A stretch of DNA of 64,000 nt from Nitrososphaerota archaeon (GCA_009903795.1 WYER01000033.1:23001-87000), one strand, 5' to 3'. Positions 48,005 to 53,584 are shown, numbered from the stretch's first letter. Numbers and translations: made by a program. The notes: generated by a model from the letters alone, not told the origin.

Positions 48005-48615
<611 letters not shown>

Positions 48616-49691
48616 TTTTTCTAACTTTTACAAAGTTAAGTTTTTCATATAATTTTATAGCTTCTTCGTTAGTTACTCTTACTTCTAAATAGACCTCTTG
48701 ACATCCTCTATTTTTCATTTTTTCAATTGCCGTCTGAAGCAAAGCAGTTCCTATACCTTTTCTTCTATGTTCGGGCAAAACCGCTATAGATACTACGTGT
48801 CCTTGTTTTACTATTGAAAAACCAAAATGTGAAAGTCCTCTTTCTATTCTATTCATTATATAACCTACTGCATTGCTATTCATCCAAGCAATAAGAAAGC
48901 CCTCAGGGAAATTTCTATAAACCTCAAGATAAAATTCAAAGGTATAATGTTCAGGAAGCGTCTTTTCGTTTATCTTTATTGCTTCCCAAATATCATCTTC
49001 GTTGGCTTCACGTATTTCATACTCTCCAATCTTTATCAATGCCTAATAATTTACTTGAATATATCTAATAAGCTTTTTTACTTAATACAACGATATTTGA
49101 TGACGTTTGACAAAAGCGAAAGATAAGAATATTTTTAACCTTACAAGAGTTAAGTCCCCTTCTAAGTTGATCAAAACTTATGTCTGATTTTATGATGAAA
49201 TTATTGCTTTAAAAGTTTTATAAGCGCTTTTTTTAAAAATAGCTTTGGTAAAGCAGTTTAATCAAATATGCTAAGTTCCAAAATTCCTTTAGTTTGTTAT
49301 CAATTGTAAGAGATGCGGTTGTAGAGTGATAACTCAATCTCATTTTTGTTTTGTTTCATTAACACCTTTATTAGATTGCAATGCGCATGTAGTGCCAACC
49401 CATGCCAATGATTACAGGTTTTCTGAACGCCTGAATATCTTTAATTTTATGACCTTCTTTTTTACTAATAAATTTAGGCCTTGCTACTTCAGTTTATTTA
49501 CTGTCAGCACAGGTTTAAAACAGGCATTCTTAATAAATTTTTCATATCTCATTAAATTACAAAGCGCTTTACCATTATTAGGTTCAAGATTGTGTTGTGT
49601 ATAGATTTCATAAAGGGCAAAATGCCTTTTGCAATAAAAAGTTTGATCTACTGGTAAGGATTGTTAGTAGGTGGTCAGGATAATAAATATC

Positions 49692-50366
49692 TCAAAGAGG
49701 ACCAGGGTTGCAAATGTTTAAATAAGGACACTTTTTGCATTCCCATTTTTTCCCTTCTTGGTAAGACTCAGGAGGAGGTGGCGAATTTATAGTTATATAA
49801 TAATCAAGCATAACTATTCTTTCATAAAGTTTTTTCATCATTTCGTCGTTTTTTATTACTTTAAATACTCTGATATTTCCATCTCTTTTATTCCAATAAA
49901 GTAAATATCCTTCATTAAAGTTCAAAGCCTGCATATAGGTATGTAATTGTAAAACATGGCTTTCGTACGGGTTATCAGGAATTTTACTAGCGCTTTTGAC
50001 TTCTATCAGATATTTTTTACCTTCTAAATCAGCTATTATAATATCCACTCGTCCACTTAACTTTATTTTATTTGTTATTTCAAGATTAATCTTAGCCTCA
50101 ATACTTTCTACATTGACTTTCTCTCCAAACGCCTTGACAACCAACTCATGAATGCCTTTTCCTGTCATAAAAATAACAAGCTCTTCAGAAGTTACCGACT
50201 CTCCAACTGTATAAATATAATATTGTTTTCTTAAACAAGAACCTATGTATGAAGGATAGTAAACTCCCTTTATAATCTGATGTTCTGATTTCTCCTTTTT
50301 CCACAAAGAATCTAAACCTTCTTTCAATATACGCTCAAGCTTTTCTTCTTCAGAATTTTTACTCAT
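49692..50366 (-). CDS. Stand-alone Cas4-like Fe-S nuclease
   Basis: C.R.QYY, G..IH, GRVD, EVKS, QL..Y, C-terminal CKKCPY..IC; no array or other cas genes in the window. Confidence 0.85.
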   Translation of the reverse strand: MSKNSEEEKLERILKEGLDSLWKKEKSEHQIIKGVYYPSYIGSCLRKQYYIYTVGESVTSEELVIFMTGKGIHELVVKAFGEKVNVESIEAKINLEITNKIKLSGRVDIIIADLEGKKYLIEVKSASKIPDNPYESHVLQLHTYMQALNFNEGYLLYWNKRDGNIRVFKVIKNDEMMKKLYERIVMLDYYITINSPPPPESYQEGKKWECKKCPYLNICNPGPL

Positions 50367-50486
50367 GCGATTAAAAATTTTTTGTGGAAGGCATTTATAA
50401 ATAGTGCTTTAAACTTAAAGCTGTTTTTACAAAAAGTTAGATTCTTTCAACAACTTCAGATAAAGCTATATTAAATTAATTATATT

Positions 50487-52244
50487 TTGTTTGGGTTGAG
50501 CAAGGCTATAATAAAAGAAGTCATACTAGAAAATTTTATGAGTTATAAATATGGAAGAATATCATTAAAACCAAGGTTTAATTTTATAACTGGGCCAAAC
50601 GGCGCAGGAAAAAGCGCTATTCTTCTTGGTATATCTTTGGCTATGGGCCAGCTTTCTACAGAAAGGAGCAGAAAACTTGCTGATCTGGTTAGGAGAGGCG
50701 AAGATATAGGCAGAGTTTCACTAGTGCTTAACAACTTAAAAGAAAACGGGAAAAGACCCTTTCCGGCATACAACAAAGATGAAATAATGCTTTCAAGATA
50801 CTTGCGAAAAGATGGATCTTACTGGTTTGAAATAGATTATAAAGAAGCATCTAGACAGCAGGTTCTTGACCTTCTAAAGAGGGTAGGCATAGATCCGAAC
50901 AACCTTTTAATAATAATGCCTCAGGGGATGGTTGATGAATTTATTATGATAAAGCCTGAGGATAAGCTTAAAATGGTTGAGGAAGCTCTTGGCATATCCG
51001 ACATAAGAGAAAATCTCCTAGGTGCAAAAAATCGTTTAAAAAACATAATCGCAGAAGAAAACCAATATCAAGATCTTATAGGAAAGGCTATGGATTCTCT
51101 AGAAAAATGGCGTGAAGAATACGATAGACTTGTTATGAGCAGACAGCTTAAACAGAAACTAGAAGAGCTAAACGCAGAATACGCTTGGGCTGAAGTTTTA
51201 AAGCTCGAAAGATCAATTAACAATCTTAACGAAAAGATAGGCAGGATTAGCGAAGAAATTTCTACGCTTGAGGCTAAAAACAAAGAAACTATATCAGATT
51301 TTGAATCAGATAGAAAGAAGTTCAGCAATATTATTCAAATAATAAAAGAAAGTACAGCAAAAGTATATAAAGGCGATGAAAAATCTGTTACAATAATTTA
51401 TGATTCAATTAATGAAATTAACCCTCTTTTGGAAAGCATGCTTGACAAGTACTCAAAGGTAAAGGTAGGAGAATACAGAATAGAGTCTTTGCGATCTGAG
51501 CTTAAGGAACTCACCAAAGAGCTTGACTCTATAAAAAACGAGTTGAACGATGCTTTGAAAAAGACAACTGGCCAGAGGCCAGCATCTGTAAGGACAATAT
51601 CTGAAATAGAAGATGAAATAAAAACTGTTAATGCACAGCTTAAAGTCCTTGGTGATGTAAATCAAGAAGCAGAAAAGGTATACCTTGAATTCAAGGCTAA
51701 AGTGGACGAATACAAGGAAAAGCTCGAAGAAGTAAGAAAAAACAAGGAAAAAACATTAAAAGAAATAGAAAGCAGGTCTAAAGAATGGAAAGAGGTTATA
51801 AGGAAGACGATTTCAGATATAAACGAAAAGTATAACGAGATAATGTCGAGGATAAACGCATCCGGTAAAGTGATACTCGTTAATGAAAACGATCCAGAAA
51901 ATGCAGGTATTAGACTTTATGCAAGCTTTGTAGGAACTGATTTGATTCCATTGGACAGCTTTTCACAGAGCGGTGGTGAGTTGAGCGCCGCTGTTACTGC
52001 TTTTCTGATTGCCGTGCAGATGTACATAGTTTCTCCATTCAGAGCTCTAGATGAGTTTGATGTTCATATGGATCCGATACTCAGAGAAAAGTTCATCAAA
52101 GCTATATATGAGGTATCACAAGGTAGCGAAACGCAATACCTTATCATAACTCCTAATTTTCCAAGTTTCTATGCACCGGATATAAACTTCATAATAGTTC
52201 AGAAAAGCCAAAGCGGAAGCGCACCTAAGGTGATAGCAAAGTGA
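50487..52244 (+). CDS. Short SMC-like ATPase (SMC5/6-like head motifs; ClsN/Arcadin-4-like size)
   Basis: ENFMSY, GPNGAGKS, MPQG, coiled coil, SGGE, FRALDEFDVHMD, IITP. Confidence 0.9.
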   Translation: MFGLSKAIIKEVILENFMSYKYGRISLKPRFNFITGPNGAGKSAILLGISLAMGQLSTERSRKLADLVRRGEDIGRVSLVLNNLKENGKRPFPAYNKDEIMLSRYLRKDGSYWFEIDYKEASRQQVLDLLKRVGIDPNNLLIIMPQGMVDEFIMIKPEDKLKMVEEALGISDIRENLLGAKNRLKNIIAEENQYQDLIGKAMDSLEKWREEYDRLVMSRQLKQKLEELNAEYAWAEVLKLERSINNLNEKIGRISEEISTLEAKNKETISDFESDRKKFSNIIQIIKESTAKVYKGDEKSVTIIYDSINEINPLLESMLDKYSKVKVGEYRIESLRSELKELTKELDSIKNELNDALKKTTGQRPASVRTISEIEDEIKTVNAQLKVLGDVNQEAEKVYLEFKAKVDEYKEKLEEVRKNKEKTLKEIESRSKEWKEVIRKTISDINEKYNEIMSRINASGKVILVNENDPENAGIRLYASFVGTDLIPLDSFSQSGGELSAAVTAFLIAVQMYIVSPFRALDEFDVHMDPILREKFIKAIYEVSQGSETQYLIITPNFPSFYAPDINFIIVQKSQSGSAPKVIAK

Positions 52245-52951
52245 ATGACAAAGAAGAAGAACTTAAGAAAATAATAGAGCTACCAGAAGCTCTTAGAAAA
52301 CTTGGCGGGGATCCTTTTGCTGTGAACGTTGAAGAGCTTTTGGAAAAAATAAACGCAAACAGGCTCAAAGACAGGGTTAAATCTTTAAAATATGAATCGC
52401 AAGCGTTAAACTCTGTATCCATTATTGTTGAAAAACAGGAAGAATGGGTGCTTGACGCGCTTAAAGGTTTAAAGATAGATCCTCAACTCATAAAAGAAAA
52501 GGTAAAGCAGATGCCTTTTAAAGACCTAGGTCTTATACTTGCAAAGCACACAACCCCTGTACTAGGTATCAAAAGAATTAGCCGTGAAAGAATAAAGATG
52601 GCTGTTGAATATTTGGGTCTGATAGAACCATGGGGTAAGAAAGCCAGTTTAGGAAGCGTCATAAGACACGAAAATGAATATACGCAGAACATCATTTTTG
52701 ACAAAAGGTTTGAAGAAGAAGCGATGGAATTTTACGAAAAAAGTTTAATGAAAGAGCTTCAAAAATCTAAAACCGTGCCTTATAAGGATTTTATTAATAA
52801 ATTTGATGAAAAACTTAAAGTAGCGTTTTATATAGCTTACCTTTCTACTGCAGGTTTTATTTCAGTTATAAGAAATCCGCTAACGGGGGAAACTCTTATA
52901 ACCTCTCCCCTTGGAGGAGAATTTGAAAGCGTGGCGATACCATTTGGCTGA
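52241..52951 (+). CDS. Kleisin (ScpA-like)
   Basis: DPFAVNV..L N-terminal motif and YL...GFI...NPLTGE.LI C-terminal wH motif; overlaps the SMC stop. Confidence 0.65.
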   Translation: MNDKEEELKKIIELPEALRKLGGDPFAVNVEELLEKINANRLKDRVKSLKYESQALNSVSIIVEKQEEWVLDALKGLKIDPQLIKEKVKQMPFKDLGLILAKHTTPVLGIKRISRERIKMAVEYLGLIEPWGKKASLGSVIRHENEYTQNIIFDKRFEEEAMEFYEKSLMKELQKSKTVPYKDFINKFDEKLKVAFYIAYLSTAGFISVIRNPLTGETLITSPLGGEFESVAIPFG

Positions 52952-53480
52952 AGAAGAGCTCCAAAAAAAGGCCCTAAAGGCACTAAGGCTTTTGTTGATT
53001 GAGACGTCCTCTTTACCAGGTTTAAAGGGTTGGGAGTTAAAGAAACATCTTGGAAAAGATTATCTTGAAGTAATAAAGGTCGCTTCAATCGAAGCGGATA
53101 AATTAGGTATGAAAATAGCAATAGTCCCCGATGATGAAGCGCCCAAGGACTTTGAAAAGGCTAGATTTGTCTTAATGACGAAGGAGCCACTTTCTGAAGC
53201 AGATTACAGCAGGTGGCTCCGCATAGAAGAAATAGCGTCGTTAGCAATGATTCTTGTGGAAATTTCACTGAGGGGAGGATCTGCGCCTCTCGATGTCATT
53301 ATAAGGATATTGACAGAAAAGCTTCCTAGATGGAGGGTTAATCAAATAATATCTAAGCTGGAAAGACTTGGATACATAAAAGAAGAGAACGGGGTTGTAT
53401 TTAAGGACTGGAGGTCAAAAGTTGAAATAGACGAAACAGGGTTCATAAAAGACATAATACTTTACAGACAAGATAAATAA
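52911..53480 (+). CDS. KITE-like tandem winged-helix protein (Nse1/Nse3/MukE-like)
   Basis: Two wH-like halves; L...GYI........WR..EID ending; third gene of the SMC operon; TTG 52944 is an alternative start. Confidence 0.6.
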   Translation: MEENLKAWRYHLAEEELQKKALKALRLLLIETSSLPGLKGWELKKHLGKDYLEVIKVASIEADKLGMKIAIVPDDEAPKDFEKARFVLMTKEPLSEADYSRWLRIEEIASLAMILVEISLRGGSAPLDVIIRILTEKLPRWRVNQIISKLERLGYIKEENGVVFKDWRSKVEIDETGFIKDIILYRQDK

Positions 53481-53584
53481 TTCTTCGTAAATTGTGCTTT
53501 TTAAAAATCAGCATAAGAAAACGCTGCTCGTTTTTAATTCCTTAAAAAACCGTTTATAATTGTACATTATATGCATAATAAAAG

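What the first reader, a model, noticed from the sequence alone, without database searches (positions are those of the whole stretch)
50487..53480. Minimal SMC5/6-like SMC-kleisin-KITE operon
Seen: three overlapping genes. The 585-aa ATPase has SMC6-like head motifs (NFMS, FRALDEFDVHMD, ITP in place of the H-loop), short coils, no cysteines (so no Rad50 hook) and no recognisable canonical hinge. It is followed by a ScpA-like protein and a tandem winged-helix protein ending like Nse1/Nse3. Known: short SMC-like proteins (ClsN/coalescin, Arcadin-4) exist in TACK archaea, so the ATPase family may be described; SMC5/6, MukBEF and Wadjet share the SMC-kleisin-KITE layout. Inference: a compact archaeal SMC5/6-type complex for chromosome organisation or restriction of extrachromosomal DNA.
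Basis: partly seen in the sequence, partly recalled or inferred. Interest (0 to 1): 0.7.

Follow-up and report, generated by a model that had tools for sequence, protein, structure and literature searches.

The report
Hinge-less archaeal SMC5/6-like operon
Three overlapping genes in a hot-spring archaeon encode a half-size, hinge-less relative of the eukaryotic Smc5/6 genome-maintenance complex with its own Nse4-like and Nse1/Nse3-like partners; operons of this kind have already been published, so this is a further member.

Summary
Three overlapping + strand genes lie at 50487-53480. They encode a 585-aa SMC-family ATPase, a 236-aa kleisin and a 189-aa tandem winged-helix (kite) protein.

The ATPase has intact ATP-binding motifs, no cysteine and no hinge. 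In a head-only tree it is sister to eukaryotic SMC6 and apart from canonical SMCs. The profile of gene 2 hits yeast Nse4 (E 1.2e-4), and 21 of 41 orthologues hit Pfam Nse4_C. The model of gene 3 best matches Nse3, Nse1 and JetB.

The three-gene module recurs in Nitrososphaeria, Bathyarchaeia and other archaea. The same genome also carries canonical Smc-ScpA-ScpB and Rad50-Mre11.

The kind is already in print (Yoshinaga & Inagaki 2021; van Hooff et al. preprint), so this is a new member of a known kind.

The papers I could search do not mention:
- the short hinge-less arms;
- a predicted parallel tip-to-tip homodimer;
- an Lhr helicase neighbour in 32 of 73 related loci;
- sampled genomes in which this seems to be the only SMC complex.

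The function is untested. I favour housekeeping DNA maintenance over defence.

The parts
50468..50486 (+). AT-rich TATA-like stretch in the 120-nt divergent intergenic region, about 26 nt upstream of the likely start at 50496. Possible archaeal promoter of a leaderless or short-leader operon mRNA.
   Evidence: Read directly from the sequence. This is inference only, and no promoter model for archaea was run. In one search the RNA-library contig depth is low in bin 50244-50404 and rises from about 50505.
50487..52244 (+). Short, hinge-less SMC-family ATPase of the SMC5/6 lineage. It is 585 aa as listed and probably 582 aa from TTG 50496.
   Evidence: ORF. Pfam SMC_N 1.7e-30. TIGR02169 scores 213.5 bits in two head stretches against a cut-off of 729. 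Solved-structure matches are Pyrococcus Smc head 6.7e-34, Smc5 5.6e-26 and Smc6 1.5e-21.
50592..50615 (+). Walker A / P-loop, GPNGAGKS (residues 36-43).
   Evidence: G36, P37, N38, G39, G41, K42 and S43 are invariant in the 18-sequence family alignment.
51012..51806 (+). Antiparallel coiled-coil arm, residues 176-440, about 130 residues per strand. The turn lies at about 294-313 (KVYKGDEKS ... P313). A conserved break lies at G362-R364-P365.
   Evidence: The alignment is gapped and variable only in the middle, and R364 is invariant. Pro/Gly positions and 0 Cys are. The arm piece folded with pLDDT of at least 86.
51321..51479 (+). Distal arm, residues 279-331. This is the predicted symmetric homodimer interface (a parallel tip bundle) that would stand in for the hinge.
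   Evidence: score 0.67 against a best control of 0.00. Self-contacts fall at 286, 315, 319, 322/323, 326/327 and 330. The patch 322-331 is the most conserved part of the distal arm.
51963..51980 (+). ABC signature motif, SQSGGE (residues 493-498).
   Evidence: S495, G496, G497 and E498 are invariant. The motif aligns to QSGGE of Smc5.
52032..52061 (+). Walker B and D-loop, SPFRALDEFD (residues 516-525), followed by VHMDP.
   Evidence: S516, P517, A520, D522, E523, D525, H527, M528 and D529 are invariant. The MDP is shared with Smc5.
52146..52154 (+). ITP (residues 554-556) at the position of the H-loop.
   Evidence: I554, T555 and P556 are invariant. The motif aligns to ITPK of Smc5, whereas Pyrococcus Smc has ITL there.
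52241..52951 (+). Nse4-like kleisin, 236 aa. It has an N-terminal helical domain (3-75), a low-confidence linker (about 102-151) and a C-terminal winged helix (155-221).
   Evidence: Model with pLDDT 67.8. The profile of 41 orthologues hits yeast Nse4 at 1.2e-4, EID3 at 0.04, ScpA-C at 0.05 and ScpA-N at 0.06. Pfam Nse4_C is hit by 21 of 41 orthologues. The top Foldseek rows are kleisins, though none reaches E 1e-3. The C-terminal winged helix scores Z 8.9 to Scc1-C and 8.6 to ScpA-C, tied with generic winged helices.
52911..53480 (+). Nse1/Nse3-like kite, a tandem winged-helix protein of 189 aa, or 178 aa from TTG 52944. It has no cysteine and hence no RING.
   Evidence: Model with pLDDT 85.2 and two winged helices. 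Foldseek matches: MAGE-G1 2.2e-5, Nse3 (7dg2_C) 2.5e-5 with TM 0.60, Nse1 6.7e-5, JetB 1.5e-4, ScpB 1.6e-3 and MukE 2.4e-3. The profile against solved sequences gives only Nse3 at E 0.099.

Best explanation
The operon encodes the archaeal SMC5/6-related complex in its compact form: one short SMC ATPase, one Nse4-like kleisin and one Nse1/3-like kite.

Shown by the tests here:
- the identities and folds of the three proteins;
- the conservation of the three-gene module;
- its coexistence in this genome with canonical Smc-ScpA-ScpB and Rad50-Mre11.

Inferred:
1. The ATPase forms a homodimer. Because it has no hinge and no zinc hook, the two roughly 130-residue arms would be held together by a parallel bundle at their distal tips (residues about 279-331).
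2. The kleisin N-terminal helices bind the neck of one head and its C-terminal winged helix binds the cap of the other, closing a small ring. This follows from established knowledge of Smc-ScpA and Smc5/6-Nse4.
3. A kite homodimer sits on the kleisin linker.
4. ATP-driven head engagement clamps DNA between the heads and the kites.

I take the role to be housekeeping DNA maintenance, that is, repair or recombination intermediates or local DNA compaction. I do not take it to be a mobile defence system.
For: Identity of the ATPase:
- SMC_N 1.7e-30.
- All ATP-binding motifs are invariant.
- The best C-terminal head match is Smc5, 3.1e-12, with QSGGE, MDP and ITP shared.
- In the head-only maximum-likelihood tree (331 columns, 43 rows) the short family (99/97) is sister to 8 eukaryotic rows, 4 of them named SMC6 (99/96). 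Together with an Asgard trio they form a clade (98/99) that excludes all 12 canonical SMC rows, among them this genome's own SMC.
- The full-length quick tree agrees, with SH-aLRT 92.
- The only named eukaryotic proteins in the 'longer' search are SMC6.

Kleisin. Kite.

Module conservation:
- 49 of 64 loci with an intact ATPase ORF carry both downstream genes at the expected size and place.
- By blastp, 61 of 73 loci carry gene 2 and 61 of 73 carry gene 3.

Second complex in the same genome:
- A 1127-aa SMC with a hinge, followed by a 209-aa ScpA/CAP-H2-like kleisin.
- ScpB at 115 bits on the same contig.
- Mre11 and an 810-aa Rad50.

Homodimer:
- The arm 176-440 in two copies scores 0.67 (three runs: 0.67, 0.66, 0.67), with a best of 3 controls of 0.00.
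- That mark was reached by 20 of 30 proteins solved as pairs of one chain and by 1 of 23 solved as single chains.
- The runs agree in at least 91% of contacts, and pLDDT is at least 86.
- My own alignment was used, so these counts hold only roughly.

Housekeeping role:
- The kite occurs once per genome in 153 of 301 sampled genomes of the phylum.
- By family it is all-or-none: 16/17, 24/25, 11/11, 18/18 and 11/11 against 0/43, 0/20 and 0/13.
- An Lhr-type DNA helicase lies in the flanks of 32 of 73 loci.

Transcription: contigs from RNA libraries of 4 studies cover the operon and bridge both gene junctions.
Against: - No experiment exists for any member, as the preprint itself says.
- The window's own kleisin and kite reach no Pfam threshold. 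Their assignment rests on family profiles and on models.
- The kleisin Foldseek matches are all weaker than E 1e-3, and its winged helix ties with generic winged helices.
- My trees hold no named SMC1-4 or SMC5 rows and have long branches.
- The dimer prediction concerns a coiled coil, a class that models readily bundle. Its controls were unrelated natural proteins, not other coiled-coil hairpins. Solved SMC rods with aligned arms exist, so the pass may partly reflect likeness.
- Interface residues are not more conserved than the arm as a whole: 1.99 against 2.24 bits.
- Kleisin-head and kleisin-kite binding were not modelled here.
- RNA-library contigs cannot exclude carried-over DNA.
- The Lhr neighbour is absent from this 64-kb window.
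- A Cas4-like nuclease sits divergently upstream.
Confidence: 0.8

Rival explanations
1. The module is a defence system of the Wadjet or Lamassu type. It would recognise and restrict plasmids or viral DNA, as eukaryotic Smc5/6 restricts episomal viral DNA.
For: The ATPase matches PADLOC models mad3 (99.5 bits), LmuB (87.9 bits) and JetC (38.3 bits). The kite model resembles JetB almost as well as Nse1/3: 1.5e-4 against 2.2e-5. A Cas4-like nuclease (62.9 bits) and a NERD/Mrr-like nuclease lie just upstream in this window. Short arms are also typical of Lamassu LmuB; that point is recalled, not tested.
Against: - The kleisin and the kite hit no JetA, JetB or other PADLOC model apart from a CARF hit at 0.0012.
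- No fourth, nuclease-like gene is conserved with the module, and the Cas4-like neighbour has a homologue in 0 of 73 loci.
- The kite is present once per genome and all-or-none by taxonomic family. That is the pattern of a vertically inherited core gene, not of a patchy defence island.
- The PADLOC ATPase hits are what any SMC_N head would give.
Confidence: 0.1
2. The short ATPase has no complex of its own. It would work as an accessory or regulator of the canonical Smc-ScpAB or of Rad50-Mre11 in the same cell, for example by forming mixed head dimers.
For: The genome holds all three systems. Lacking a hinge, the ATPase could in principle need another dimerisation partner.
Against: - It is always encoded with its own kleisin and kite.
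- The arm is predicted to pair with itself.
- Two one-contig genomes of family f9, and one f10 genome in 2 contigs, carry the mini-SMC but no SMC frame longer than 1000 aa and no ScpB. There it cannot depend on canonical Smc-ScpAB.
- hhalign finds no similarity between the two kleisins of this genome, probability 0.89%.
Confidence: 0.05
3. The ATPase belongs to a previously named archaeal SMC-like family (ClsN/coalescin and other ASRPs, or Arcadin-4) and acts like those proteins.
For: Its size of about 600 aa and its TACK host resemble those families. NCBIfam gives weak hits to ASRP (1.5e-15) and to arcadin-4 (1e-10).
Against: - The scores are far below the curated cut-offs: 56.9 against 300 and 40.4 against 860.
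- The ASRP hit covers only coiled coil (315-457).
- ClsN is reported to carry a zinc hook (passages), and this protein has no cysteine.
- ASRP genes have no consensus neighbours, whereas this gene always has a kleisin and a kite.
- The heads score 213 bits to the SMC model.
Confidence: 0.02

Closest known systems
Archaeal 'SMC5/6-related' SMC-kleisin-kite operons of TACK and Asgard archaea. Sources: Yoshinaga & Inagaki 2021, bioRxiv 10.1101/2021.05.15.444277 / PMC8665677, passages read; van Hooff, Raas, Tromer & Eme, bioRxiv 10.1101/2024.01.07.573240, sections 8 and 13 read.
   Same: The SMC branches with SMC5/6. It is encoded in one operon with an Nse4-related kleisin and an Nse1/3-like kite. 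It sits beside a separate condensin/cohesin-related set in the same genome. The host phylum is the same (Thaumarchaeota, Bathyarchaeota, Verstraetearchaeota).
   Different: Nothing of substance differs; this locus is a member. The main texts I read do not mention the short arms, the missing hinge or how such a protein dimerises. 'Shorter' occurs 0 times, and 'hinge' occurs only in introductions.
Eukaryotic Smc5/6-Nse1-Nse3-Nse4 core (for example PDB 7tve, 7qcd, 7dg2, 9lwi).
   Same: Head motifs are shared (QSGGE, MDP, ITP(K)). The Nse4-type kleisin C-terminal domain and the MAGE/Nse1-type tandem winged-helix kite are shared. The layout is kleisin plus kite, not kleisin plus hawk.
   Different: - There is one SMC gene (homodimer) instead of the Smc5/Smc6 heterodimer.
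- The arms have about 130 residues per strand instead of about 350 (figure recalled), and there is no hinge.
- There is one kite gene instead of Nse1 plus Nse3, and no RING (0 Cys).
- No Nse2, Nse5 or Nse6 lies in the operon.
Prokaryotic Smc-ScpAB (the canonical set, also present in this genome on contig C26).
   Same: The SMC head fold is shared; the best full-length solved match is the Pyrococcus Smc head at 6.7e-34. It has a kleisin with an N-terminal helical domain and a C-terminal winged helix, and a kite dimer partner.
   Different: There is no hinge (PF06470 not matched). The protein is half the length. TIGR02169 scores 213 bits against a cut-off of 729. The kleisin and kite are not recognisably ScpA or ScpB by sequence. 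It falls in a separate clade in the tree.
Wadjet JetABC(D) and MukBEF.
   Same: The SMC-kleisin-kite layout is shared. The kite model matches JetB (1.5e-4) and MukE (2.4e-3).
   Different: No JetD-like nuclease is present. The JetC models score only 24-38 bits, and the JetA and JetB models do not match. The distribution is core-like.
Hinge-less SMC variants of marine Actinobacteria (PMC12153180, passages read) and engineered mini-Smc of Bacillus subtilis (PMC5344682, search listing only).
   Same: These are SMC-family heads on a coiled coil that lacks the hinge domain and the CXXC hook. They raise the same question of how arm length and the hinge matter.
   Different: They come from a different domain of life and a different SMC lineage. 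No kleisin or kite partners are reported in the passages I read. The mini-Smc proteins are laboratory constructs that keep a hinge (recalled).

Membership tests
Archaeal SMC5/6-related SMC-kleisin-kite complex | SMC-family ABC ATPase head with Walker A, Q-loop, signature and Walker B motifs | tested here: met
   SMC_N 1.7e-30. GPNGAGKS, Q146, SGGE and DEFD are invariant.
Archaeal SMC5/6-related SMC-kleisin-kite complex | The SMC branches with eukaryotic SMC5/6 rather than with canonical SMC | tested here: met
   In the head-only careful tree the family is sister to the SMC6 clade (99/96), and the joint clade (98/99) excludes 12 canonical SMC rows. Caveat: no named SMC1-4 or SMC5 rows were included. 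The best C-terminal head match is Smc5.
Archaeal SMC5/6-related SMC-kleisin-kite complex | Adjacent kleisin related to Nse4 | tested here: met
   The family profile hits yeast Nse4 at 1.2e-4. Nse4_C is hit by 21 of 41 orthologues. The window's own copy alone reaches no threshold.
Archaeal SMC5/6-related SMC-kleisin-kite complex | Adjacent kite of the Nse1/Nse3 (MAGE) type | tested here: met
   The top Foldseek matches are MAGE-G1, Nse3 and Nse1, at 2.2e-5 to 6.7e-5 with TM up to 0.60. By sequence the support is weak: Nse3 at 0.099 and MAGE in 1 of 41 orthologues.
Archaeal SMC5/6-related SMC-kleisin-kite complex | The three genes form one operon, separate from the condensin-type set | tested here: met
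   The ORFs overlap. The canonical smc-scpA lies on another contig.
Eukaryotic Smc5/6 holo-complex | Smc5/Smc6 heterodimer joined by a hinge | tested here: not met
   There is a single SMC gene in the operon. No hinge domain is found, and the middle of the alignment is variable.
Eukaryotic Smc5/6 holo-complex | Nse1 with a RING finger, plus Nse2 and Nse5/6 | tested here: not met
   There is one kite gene, and its translation shows no cysteine. No further conserved gene lies in the module. Nse2 and Nse5/6 elsewhere in the genome were not searched for.
ASRP (ClsN/coalescin, Sph) | Match to the curated ASRP model, and for ClsN a zinc hook at the coil apex | tested here: not met
   NF045487 scores 56.9 bits against a cut-off of 300, on coiled coil only. 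The protein has 0 Cys.
Arcadin-4 | Match to the curated arcadin-4 model | tested here: not met
   NF053563 scores 40.4 bits against a cut-off of 860.
Canonical prokaryotic Smc | Hinge domain (PF06470), about 1100-1200 aa, and the equivalog model | tested here: not met
   There is no hinge match. The protein is 585 aa. TIGR02169 scores 213.5 against a cut-off of 729.4. This genome's own canonical SMC does match the hinge model at 26.6 bits.
Rad50/SbcC | CXXC zinc hook, an Mre11 partner and the curated Rad50 models | tested here: not met
   The protein has 0 Cys. Rad50 models score 60-67 bits against cut-offs of 700-1000. The genome's Rad50-Mre11 pair lies elsewhere.
Wadjet (JetABCD) | JetA, JetB and JetC models, and a JetD nuclease in the operon | tested here: not met
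   JetC models score 24-38 bits. There is no JetA or JetB hit. There is no conserved fourth gene. The fold likeness of the kite to JetB is shared by all kites.

The most novel reading that the evidence does not exclude
The hinge-less mini complex is a complete, self-sufficient SMC machine. Its two arms are held by a parallel four-helix tip instead of a hinge, so it forms a ring or clamp less than half the usual length. In lineages that have lost Smc-ScpAB it is the only SMC complex and carries chromosome maintenance alone. It would then be the simplest natural model both for the ancestral job of Smc5/6 and for the question of whether SMC motors need a hinge and long arms.
Probability: 0.3. Interest if true: 0.65.

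Novelty: new member of a known kind. Interest (0 to 1): 0.35.

Why it matters
The ancestral function of Smc5/6 is still unclear, and the authors of the preprint single out the archaeal relatives as the way to find it.

This member adds nothing to the catalogue. It does underline features that make the family attractive for experiment:
- three small proteins;
- no native cysteines in the ATPase or the kite, which suits engineered cross-linking;
- arms of only about 130 residues;
- no hinge, with a specific predicted dimer contact that can be tested.

If such a complex translocates on or entraps DNA, it limits models in which the hinge and long arms are essential.

The side observations would point to a repair or maintenance role if they hold up. 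These are the Lhr helicase neighbour in 32 of 73 loci, and the sampled genomes with this complex but no long SMC or ScpB.

Tried and rejected
- **Single-sequence family scans of the small proteins.** Pfam and NCBIfam scans of the two small proteins gave nothing usable. Family alignments were needed.
- **Kite profile against solved sequences.** It gave only Nse3 at E 0.099.
- **Kleisin fold matches.** Foldseek found no kleisin match at E 1e-3 or better. The second look tied kleisin C-domains with generic winged helices.
- **The two kleisins of this genome.** hhalign of the kleisin family against this genome's ScpA-like protein found nothing, probability 0.89%.
- **Nuclease neighbours as part of the system.** Rejected. 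The Cas4-like gene has a homologue in 0 of 73 loci, and the NERD and GNAT genes in 1 of 73.
- **ClsN, Arcadin-4, RecN and Rad50 membership.** Rejected on curated cut-offs and the absence of cysteine.
- **Pfam hinge as a census of canonical SMC.** It proved unreliable. Family f11 scored 0 of 11, yet two of its genomes hold an 1128-aa SMC and ScpB. Only the three genomes checked directly are used.
- **Interface conservation.** It gave no clear support over the whole arm.
- **Earlier notes of this scan.** Look-ups by place and by sequence returned nothing.
- **RNA families.** Rfam found only a tRNA nearby.
- **Literature searches.** Searches for archaeal Smc5/6 phrases failed on the slash or returned one unrelated paper.
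- **RNA-library depth.** The dips outside the operon and the contig ends at 53466-53499 are not used as evidence of transcript ends.
- **Long downstream ORFs.** The long ORFs in L057 and L040 on the + strand have no Pfam hit. They overlap the minus-strand Lhr gene, so I treat them as spurious.


Full report
**1. What is there**

One search lists three + strand ORFs at the stated coordinates:
- 50487-52244, 585 aa;
- 52241-52951, 236 aa;
- 52911-53480, 189 aa.

The first two overlap by 4 nt. The second and third overlap by 41 nt, or by 8 nt if the third starts at the in-frame TTG at 52944. Close homologues start at MSKAII. The ATPase therefore probably starts at TTG 50496, about 26 nt downstream of an AT-rich TATA-like stretch.

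The flanks are unrelated genes:
- Upstream and divergent lie a Cas4-like PD-(D/E)XK nuclease (49692-50366), a GNAT acetyltransferase-like gene, a NERD/Mrr-like nuclease and tRNA-Arg(CCG).
- Downstream lie ABC-transporter genes.

The best-named homologues are from Conexivisphaerales/Nitrososphaeria metagenome bins, at 89-99% identity. The runs that hold the stretch are mostly hot-spring metagenomes.

**2. The ATPase**

It is an SMC-family head split by a short coiled coil.
- Pfam SMC_N scores 1.7e-30.
- The SMC equivalog TIGR02169 scores 213.5 bits in two stretches, far below its cut-off of 729 because the middle is missing.
- Among solved structures the whole protein best matches the Pyrococcus Smc head (6.7e-34), then Smc5 (5.6e-26) and Smc6 (1.5e-21). 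These are ahead of Smc1-4 (1e-16 and weaker) and Rad50 (about 1e-5).
- The C-terminal head alone best matches Smc5 (3.1e-12). QYLIITPNF aligns to the Smc5 QYFFITPKL, and QSGGE and MDP are shared. Pyrococcus Smc has MSGGE, HLD and ITL at these places.
- The protein has no cysteine and no hinge match.
- In the alignment the only badly conserved, gap-rich part is the centre, where family members differ by up to about 100 residues.
- The arm is thus about 130 residues per strand. It turns near 294-313 and has a conserved break at G362-R364-P365.
- Curated models exclude ClsN/ASRP (56.9 against 300 bits), arcadin-4 (40.4 against 860), RecN and Rad50.

**3. Phylogeny**

I built two trees. The rows were the window's protein, 14 family members, long relatives, eukaryotic proteins named SMC6 (names), Asgard proteins, canonical archaeal and bacterial SMCs, this genome's own SMC, and its Rad50 as outgroup.

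The careful head-only tree has 331 columns and 43 rows.
- It puts the short family (99/97) as sister to the eukaryotic clade that holds the four named SMC6 proteins (99/96).
- Those two plus an Asgard trio form a clade (98/99) that excludes every canonical SMC, including the one from this genome.

The quick full-length tree gives the same grouping at SH-aLRT 92.

Limits: no named SMC1-4 or SMC5 rows were at hand, some branches are long, and the root rests on one Rad50.

The result agrees with Yoshinaga & Inagaki (passages). They found archaeal SMCs from Crenarchaeota, Verstraetearchaeota, Thaumarchaeota and Bathyarchaeota joining SMC5+6.

Three 1040-1071-aa proteins (364-372 bits) nest inside the short family. 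Long arms there look secondary.

**4. The two small proteins**

Alone, neither reaches a Pfam or NCBIfam threshold. I therefore took their orthologues from the loci fetched and aligned 41 of each.

Kleisin:
- Its profile hits the C-terminal domain of yeast Nse4 (E 1.2e-4), human EID3 (0.04), and Pyrococcus ScpA C- and N-terminal pieces (0.05 and 0.06).
- 21 of 41 orthologues hit Pfam Nse4_C, best 5.6e-5.
- The model (pLDDT 67.8) shows an N-terminal helical domain, a low-confidence linker and a C-terminal winged helix.
- Its top Foldseek rows are Nse4, Brn1, Nse4, Brn1, Brn1, Scc1-C, Scc1 and MukF, but none is better than E 4e-3.
- In the second look the winged helix scores Z 8.9 to Scc1-C and 8.6 to ScpA-C, tied with generic winged helices at about 8.

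Kite:
- The model (pLDDT 85.2) has two winged helices.
- It best matches MAGE-G1 (2.2e-5), Nse3 (2.5e-5, TM 0.60), Nse1 (6.7e-5), JetB (1.5e-4), then ScpB and MukE.
- By sequence only Nse3 appears, at E 0.099.
- It has no cysteine, so it lacks the RING of eukaryotic Nse1.

**5. Conservation and genomic setting**

73 loci were kept.
- 64 of these have an intact ATPase ORF by my filter, and 49 of the 64 carry both downstream genes at the expected size and place.
- Of the 58 with at least 1500 nt downstream, 10 failed the filter. Several of these have shifted starts or split frames. Two Methanosarcinales loci have different genes there.
- By blastp, 68, 61 and 61 of 73 loci hold homologues of genes 1, 2 and 3. 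The window's other neighbours are shared only with the closest kin, or with none.
- The same genome has a 1127-aa SMC with a hinge, followed by a ScpA/CAP-H2-like kleisin. It also has ScpB 25 kb away on that contig, and Mre11-Rad50.

This is the two-complex situation that van Hooff et al. describe for TACK and Asgard archaea (sections 8 and 13).

**6. How it may work**

The three proteins fit the general SMC-kleisin-kite plan. The open point is dimerisation without a hinge or hook. I folded two copies of the arm (176-440) with the family alignment.
- The score is 0.67 (runs 0.67, 0.66, 0.67), and the best of 3 controls is 0.00.
- The mark was reached by 20 of 30 proteins solved as pairs of one chain and by 1 of 23 solved as single chains.
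- The runs agree in at least 91% of contacts, and pLDDT is at least 86.
- The counts hold only roughly because my own alignment was used.
- The interface is symmetric and lies in the distal arm (279-331, plus 376-387).
- Self-contacts fall at 286, 315, 319, 322/323, 326/327 and 330. That spacing means the two arms run in parallel, side by side, with both heads at the same end.

Cautions:
- Coiled coils are easily bundled by such models.
- The controls were not coiled coils.
- Aligned SMC arms are known from solved structures.
- Interface positions are not more conserved than the arm overall (1.99 against 2.24 bits).
- Within 270-340 they are more conserved (1.9 against 1.55), and 322-331 is the best-conserved distal patch.

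Kleisin-head and kleisin-kite contacts were not modelled. They are inferred from homology.

**7. What it may be for**

Against a defence role:
- The kite occurs once per genome in 153 of 301 sampled genomes of the phylum, and by family it is nearly all-or-none.
- No nuclease is conserved with it.
- The kleisin and kite match no Wadjet model.

For a repair or maintenance role:
- An Lhr-type helicase (DEAD, DEAD_assoc and WH_Lhr domains) lies in the fetched flanks of 32 of 73 loci. It is usually convergent, directly after the kite.
- That is not so in this window. The genome's Lhr homologues lie on other contigs.

Direct checks of five genomes gave the following:
- Two genomes of family f11 have both a long SMC and ScpB.
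- Two one-contig genomes of f9 (97% complete) have the mini-SMC but no SMC frame over 1000 aa and no ScpB.
- One f10 genome (2 contigs, 92% complete) shows the same as the f9 pair.

The Pfam hinge census undercounts divergent hinges, so I do not use it for this point.

Contigs from RNA libraries of four studies cover the operon and bridge both junctions. This is compatible with co-transcription, but carried-over DNA is not excluded.

**8. Novelty**

- The kind is published.
- Earlier agents of this scan reached the same conclusion on seven other genomes.
- My searches found 'hinge-less' SMCs in print only for marine Actinobacteria (PMC12153180, passages) and as engineered mini-Smc (search listing).
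- The two archaeal papers do not discuss length or hinge in the text I could read. The preprint's supplements were closed.

The locus is therefore a new member of a known kind. Its interest lies in details that could guide experiments.

Noticed in passing
window 49692-50366 (-): A stand-alone Cas4-like PD-(D/E)XK nuclease (Cas_Cas4 7.6e-9; PADLOC Cas4 62.9 bits) with C-terminal cysteines lies divergent from the operon. No homologue lies in any of the 73 related loci, so it is not part of the module. I did not look for cas genes or CRISPR arrays elsewhere in the window.
   Followed up: partly
window 48005-49039 (-): This stretch holds tRNA-Arg(CCG) at 48005-48079, a NERD/Mrr-like nuclease gene at 48070-48615 whose listed ORF overlaps the tRNA by 10 nt, and a GNAT-like gene at 48560-49039 that overlaps the nuclease ORF by 56 nt. 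The listed starts are probably too far upstream.
   Followed up: no
window 49040-49691: This is a stretch of about 650 nt without a convincing ORF, between the GNAT-like and Cas4-like genes. Only a 92-aa GTG ORF lies on the + strand. No Rfam family reached its gathering score.
   Followed up: partly
G008, G016 (family code f9) and G057 (f10), whole genomes: These genomes carry the mini-SMC (frames of 593-644 aa) and its kite, but no SMC_N frame over 1000 aa and no ScpB match. Two f11 genomes have both sets. The SMC5/6-like complex may be the only SMC complex in some lineages of the phylum.
   Followed up: partly
L019:9005-11854 and the flanks of 32 of 73 related loci (for example L026, L041, L054, L057): An Lhr-type large helicase sits next to the operon, usually convergent directly after the kite gene, in Nitrososphaerales and some other archaea. 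It is absent from this 64-kb window. The genome's Lhr homologues are at G000:C4:13938-16490 and on C33.
   Followed up: partly
P0121-P0123: Three members of 1040-1071 aa nest inside the short family in both trees, so their arms seem to have been lengthened secondarily. One is labelled as coming from a Planctomycetes bin, which may be a binning error or a transfer.
   Followed up: no
L053, L066 (Methanosarcinales bins): Here the mini-SMC gene is not followed by the usual kleisin and kite ORFs. L053 has 388-aa and 446-aa ORFs instead. These were not annotated.
   Followed up: no
L074 (G000:C26:5500-13000): The canonical SMC of this genome matches the Pfam hinge model only weakly (26.6 bits). In family f11 the hinge model finds nothing although an 1128-aa SMC exists. 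Hinge-based censuses of SMC in this phylum undercount.
   Followed up: partly
window 53466-53499: RNA-library contigs of four runs all stop within 35 nt of the kite stop codon (53480). One ends in an Illumina adapter sequence. Contig depth is low in the next bin. This might mark the 3' end of the operon transcript, but contigs cannot show it.
   Followed up: no
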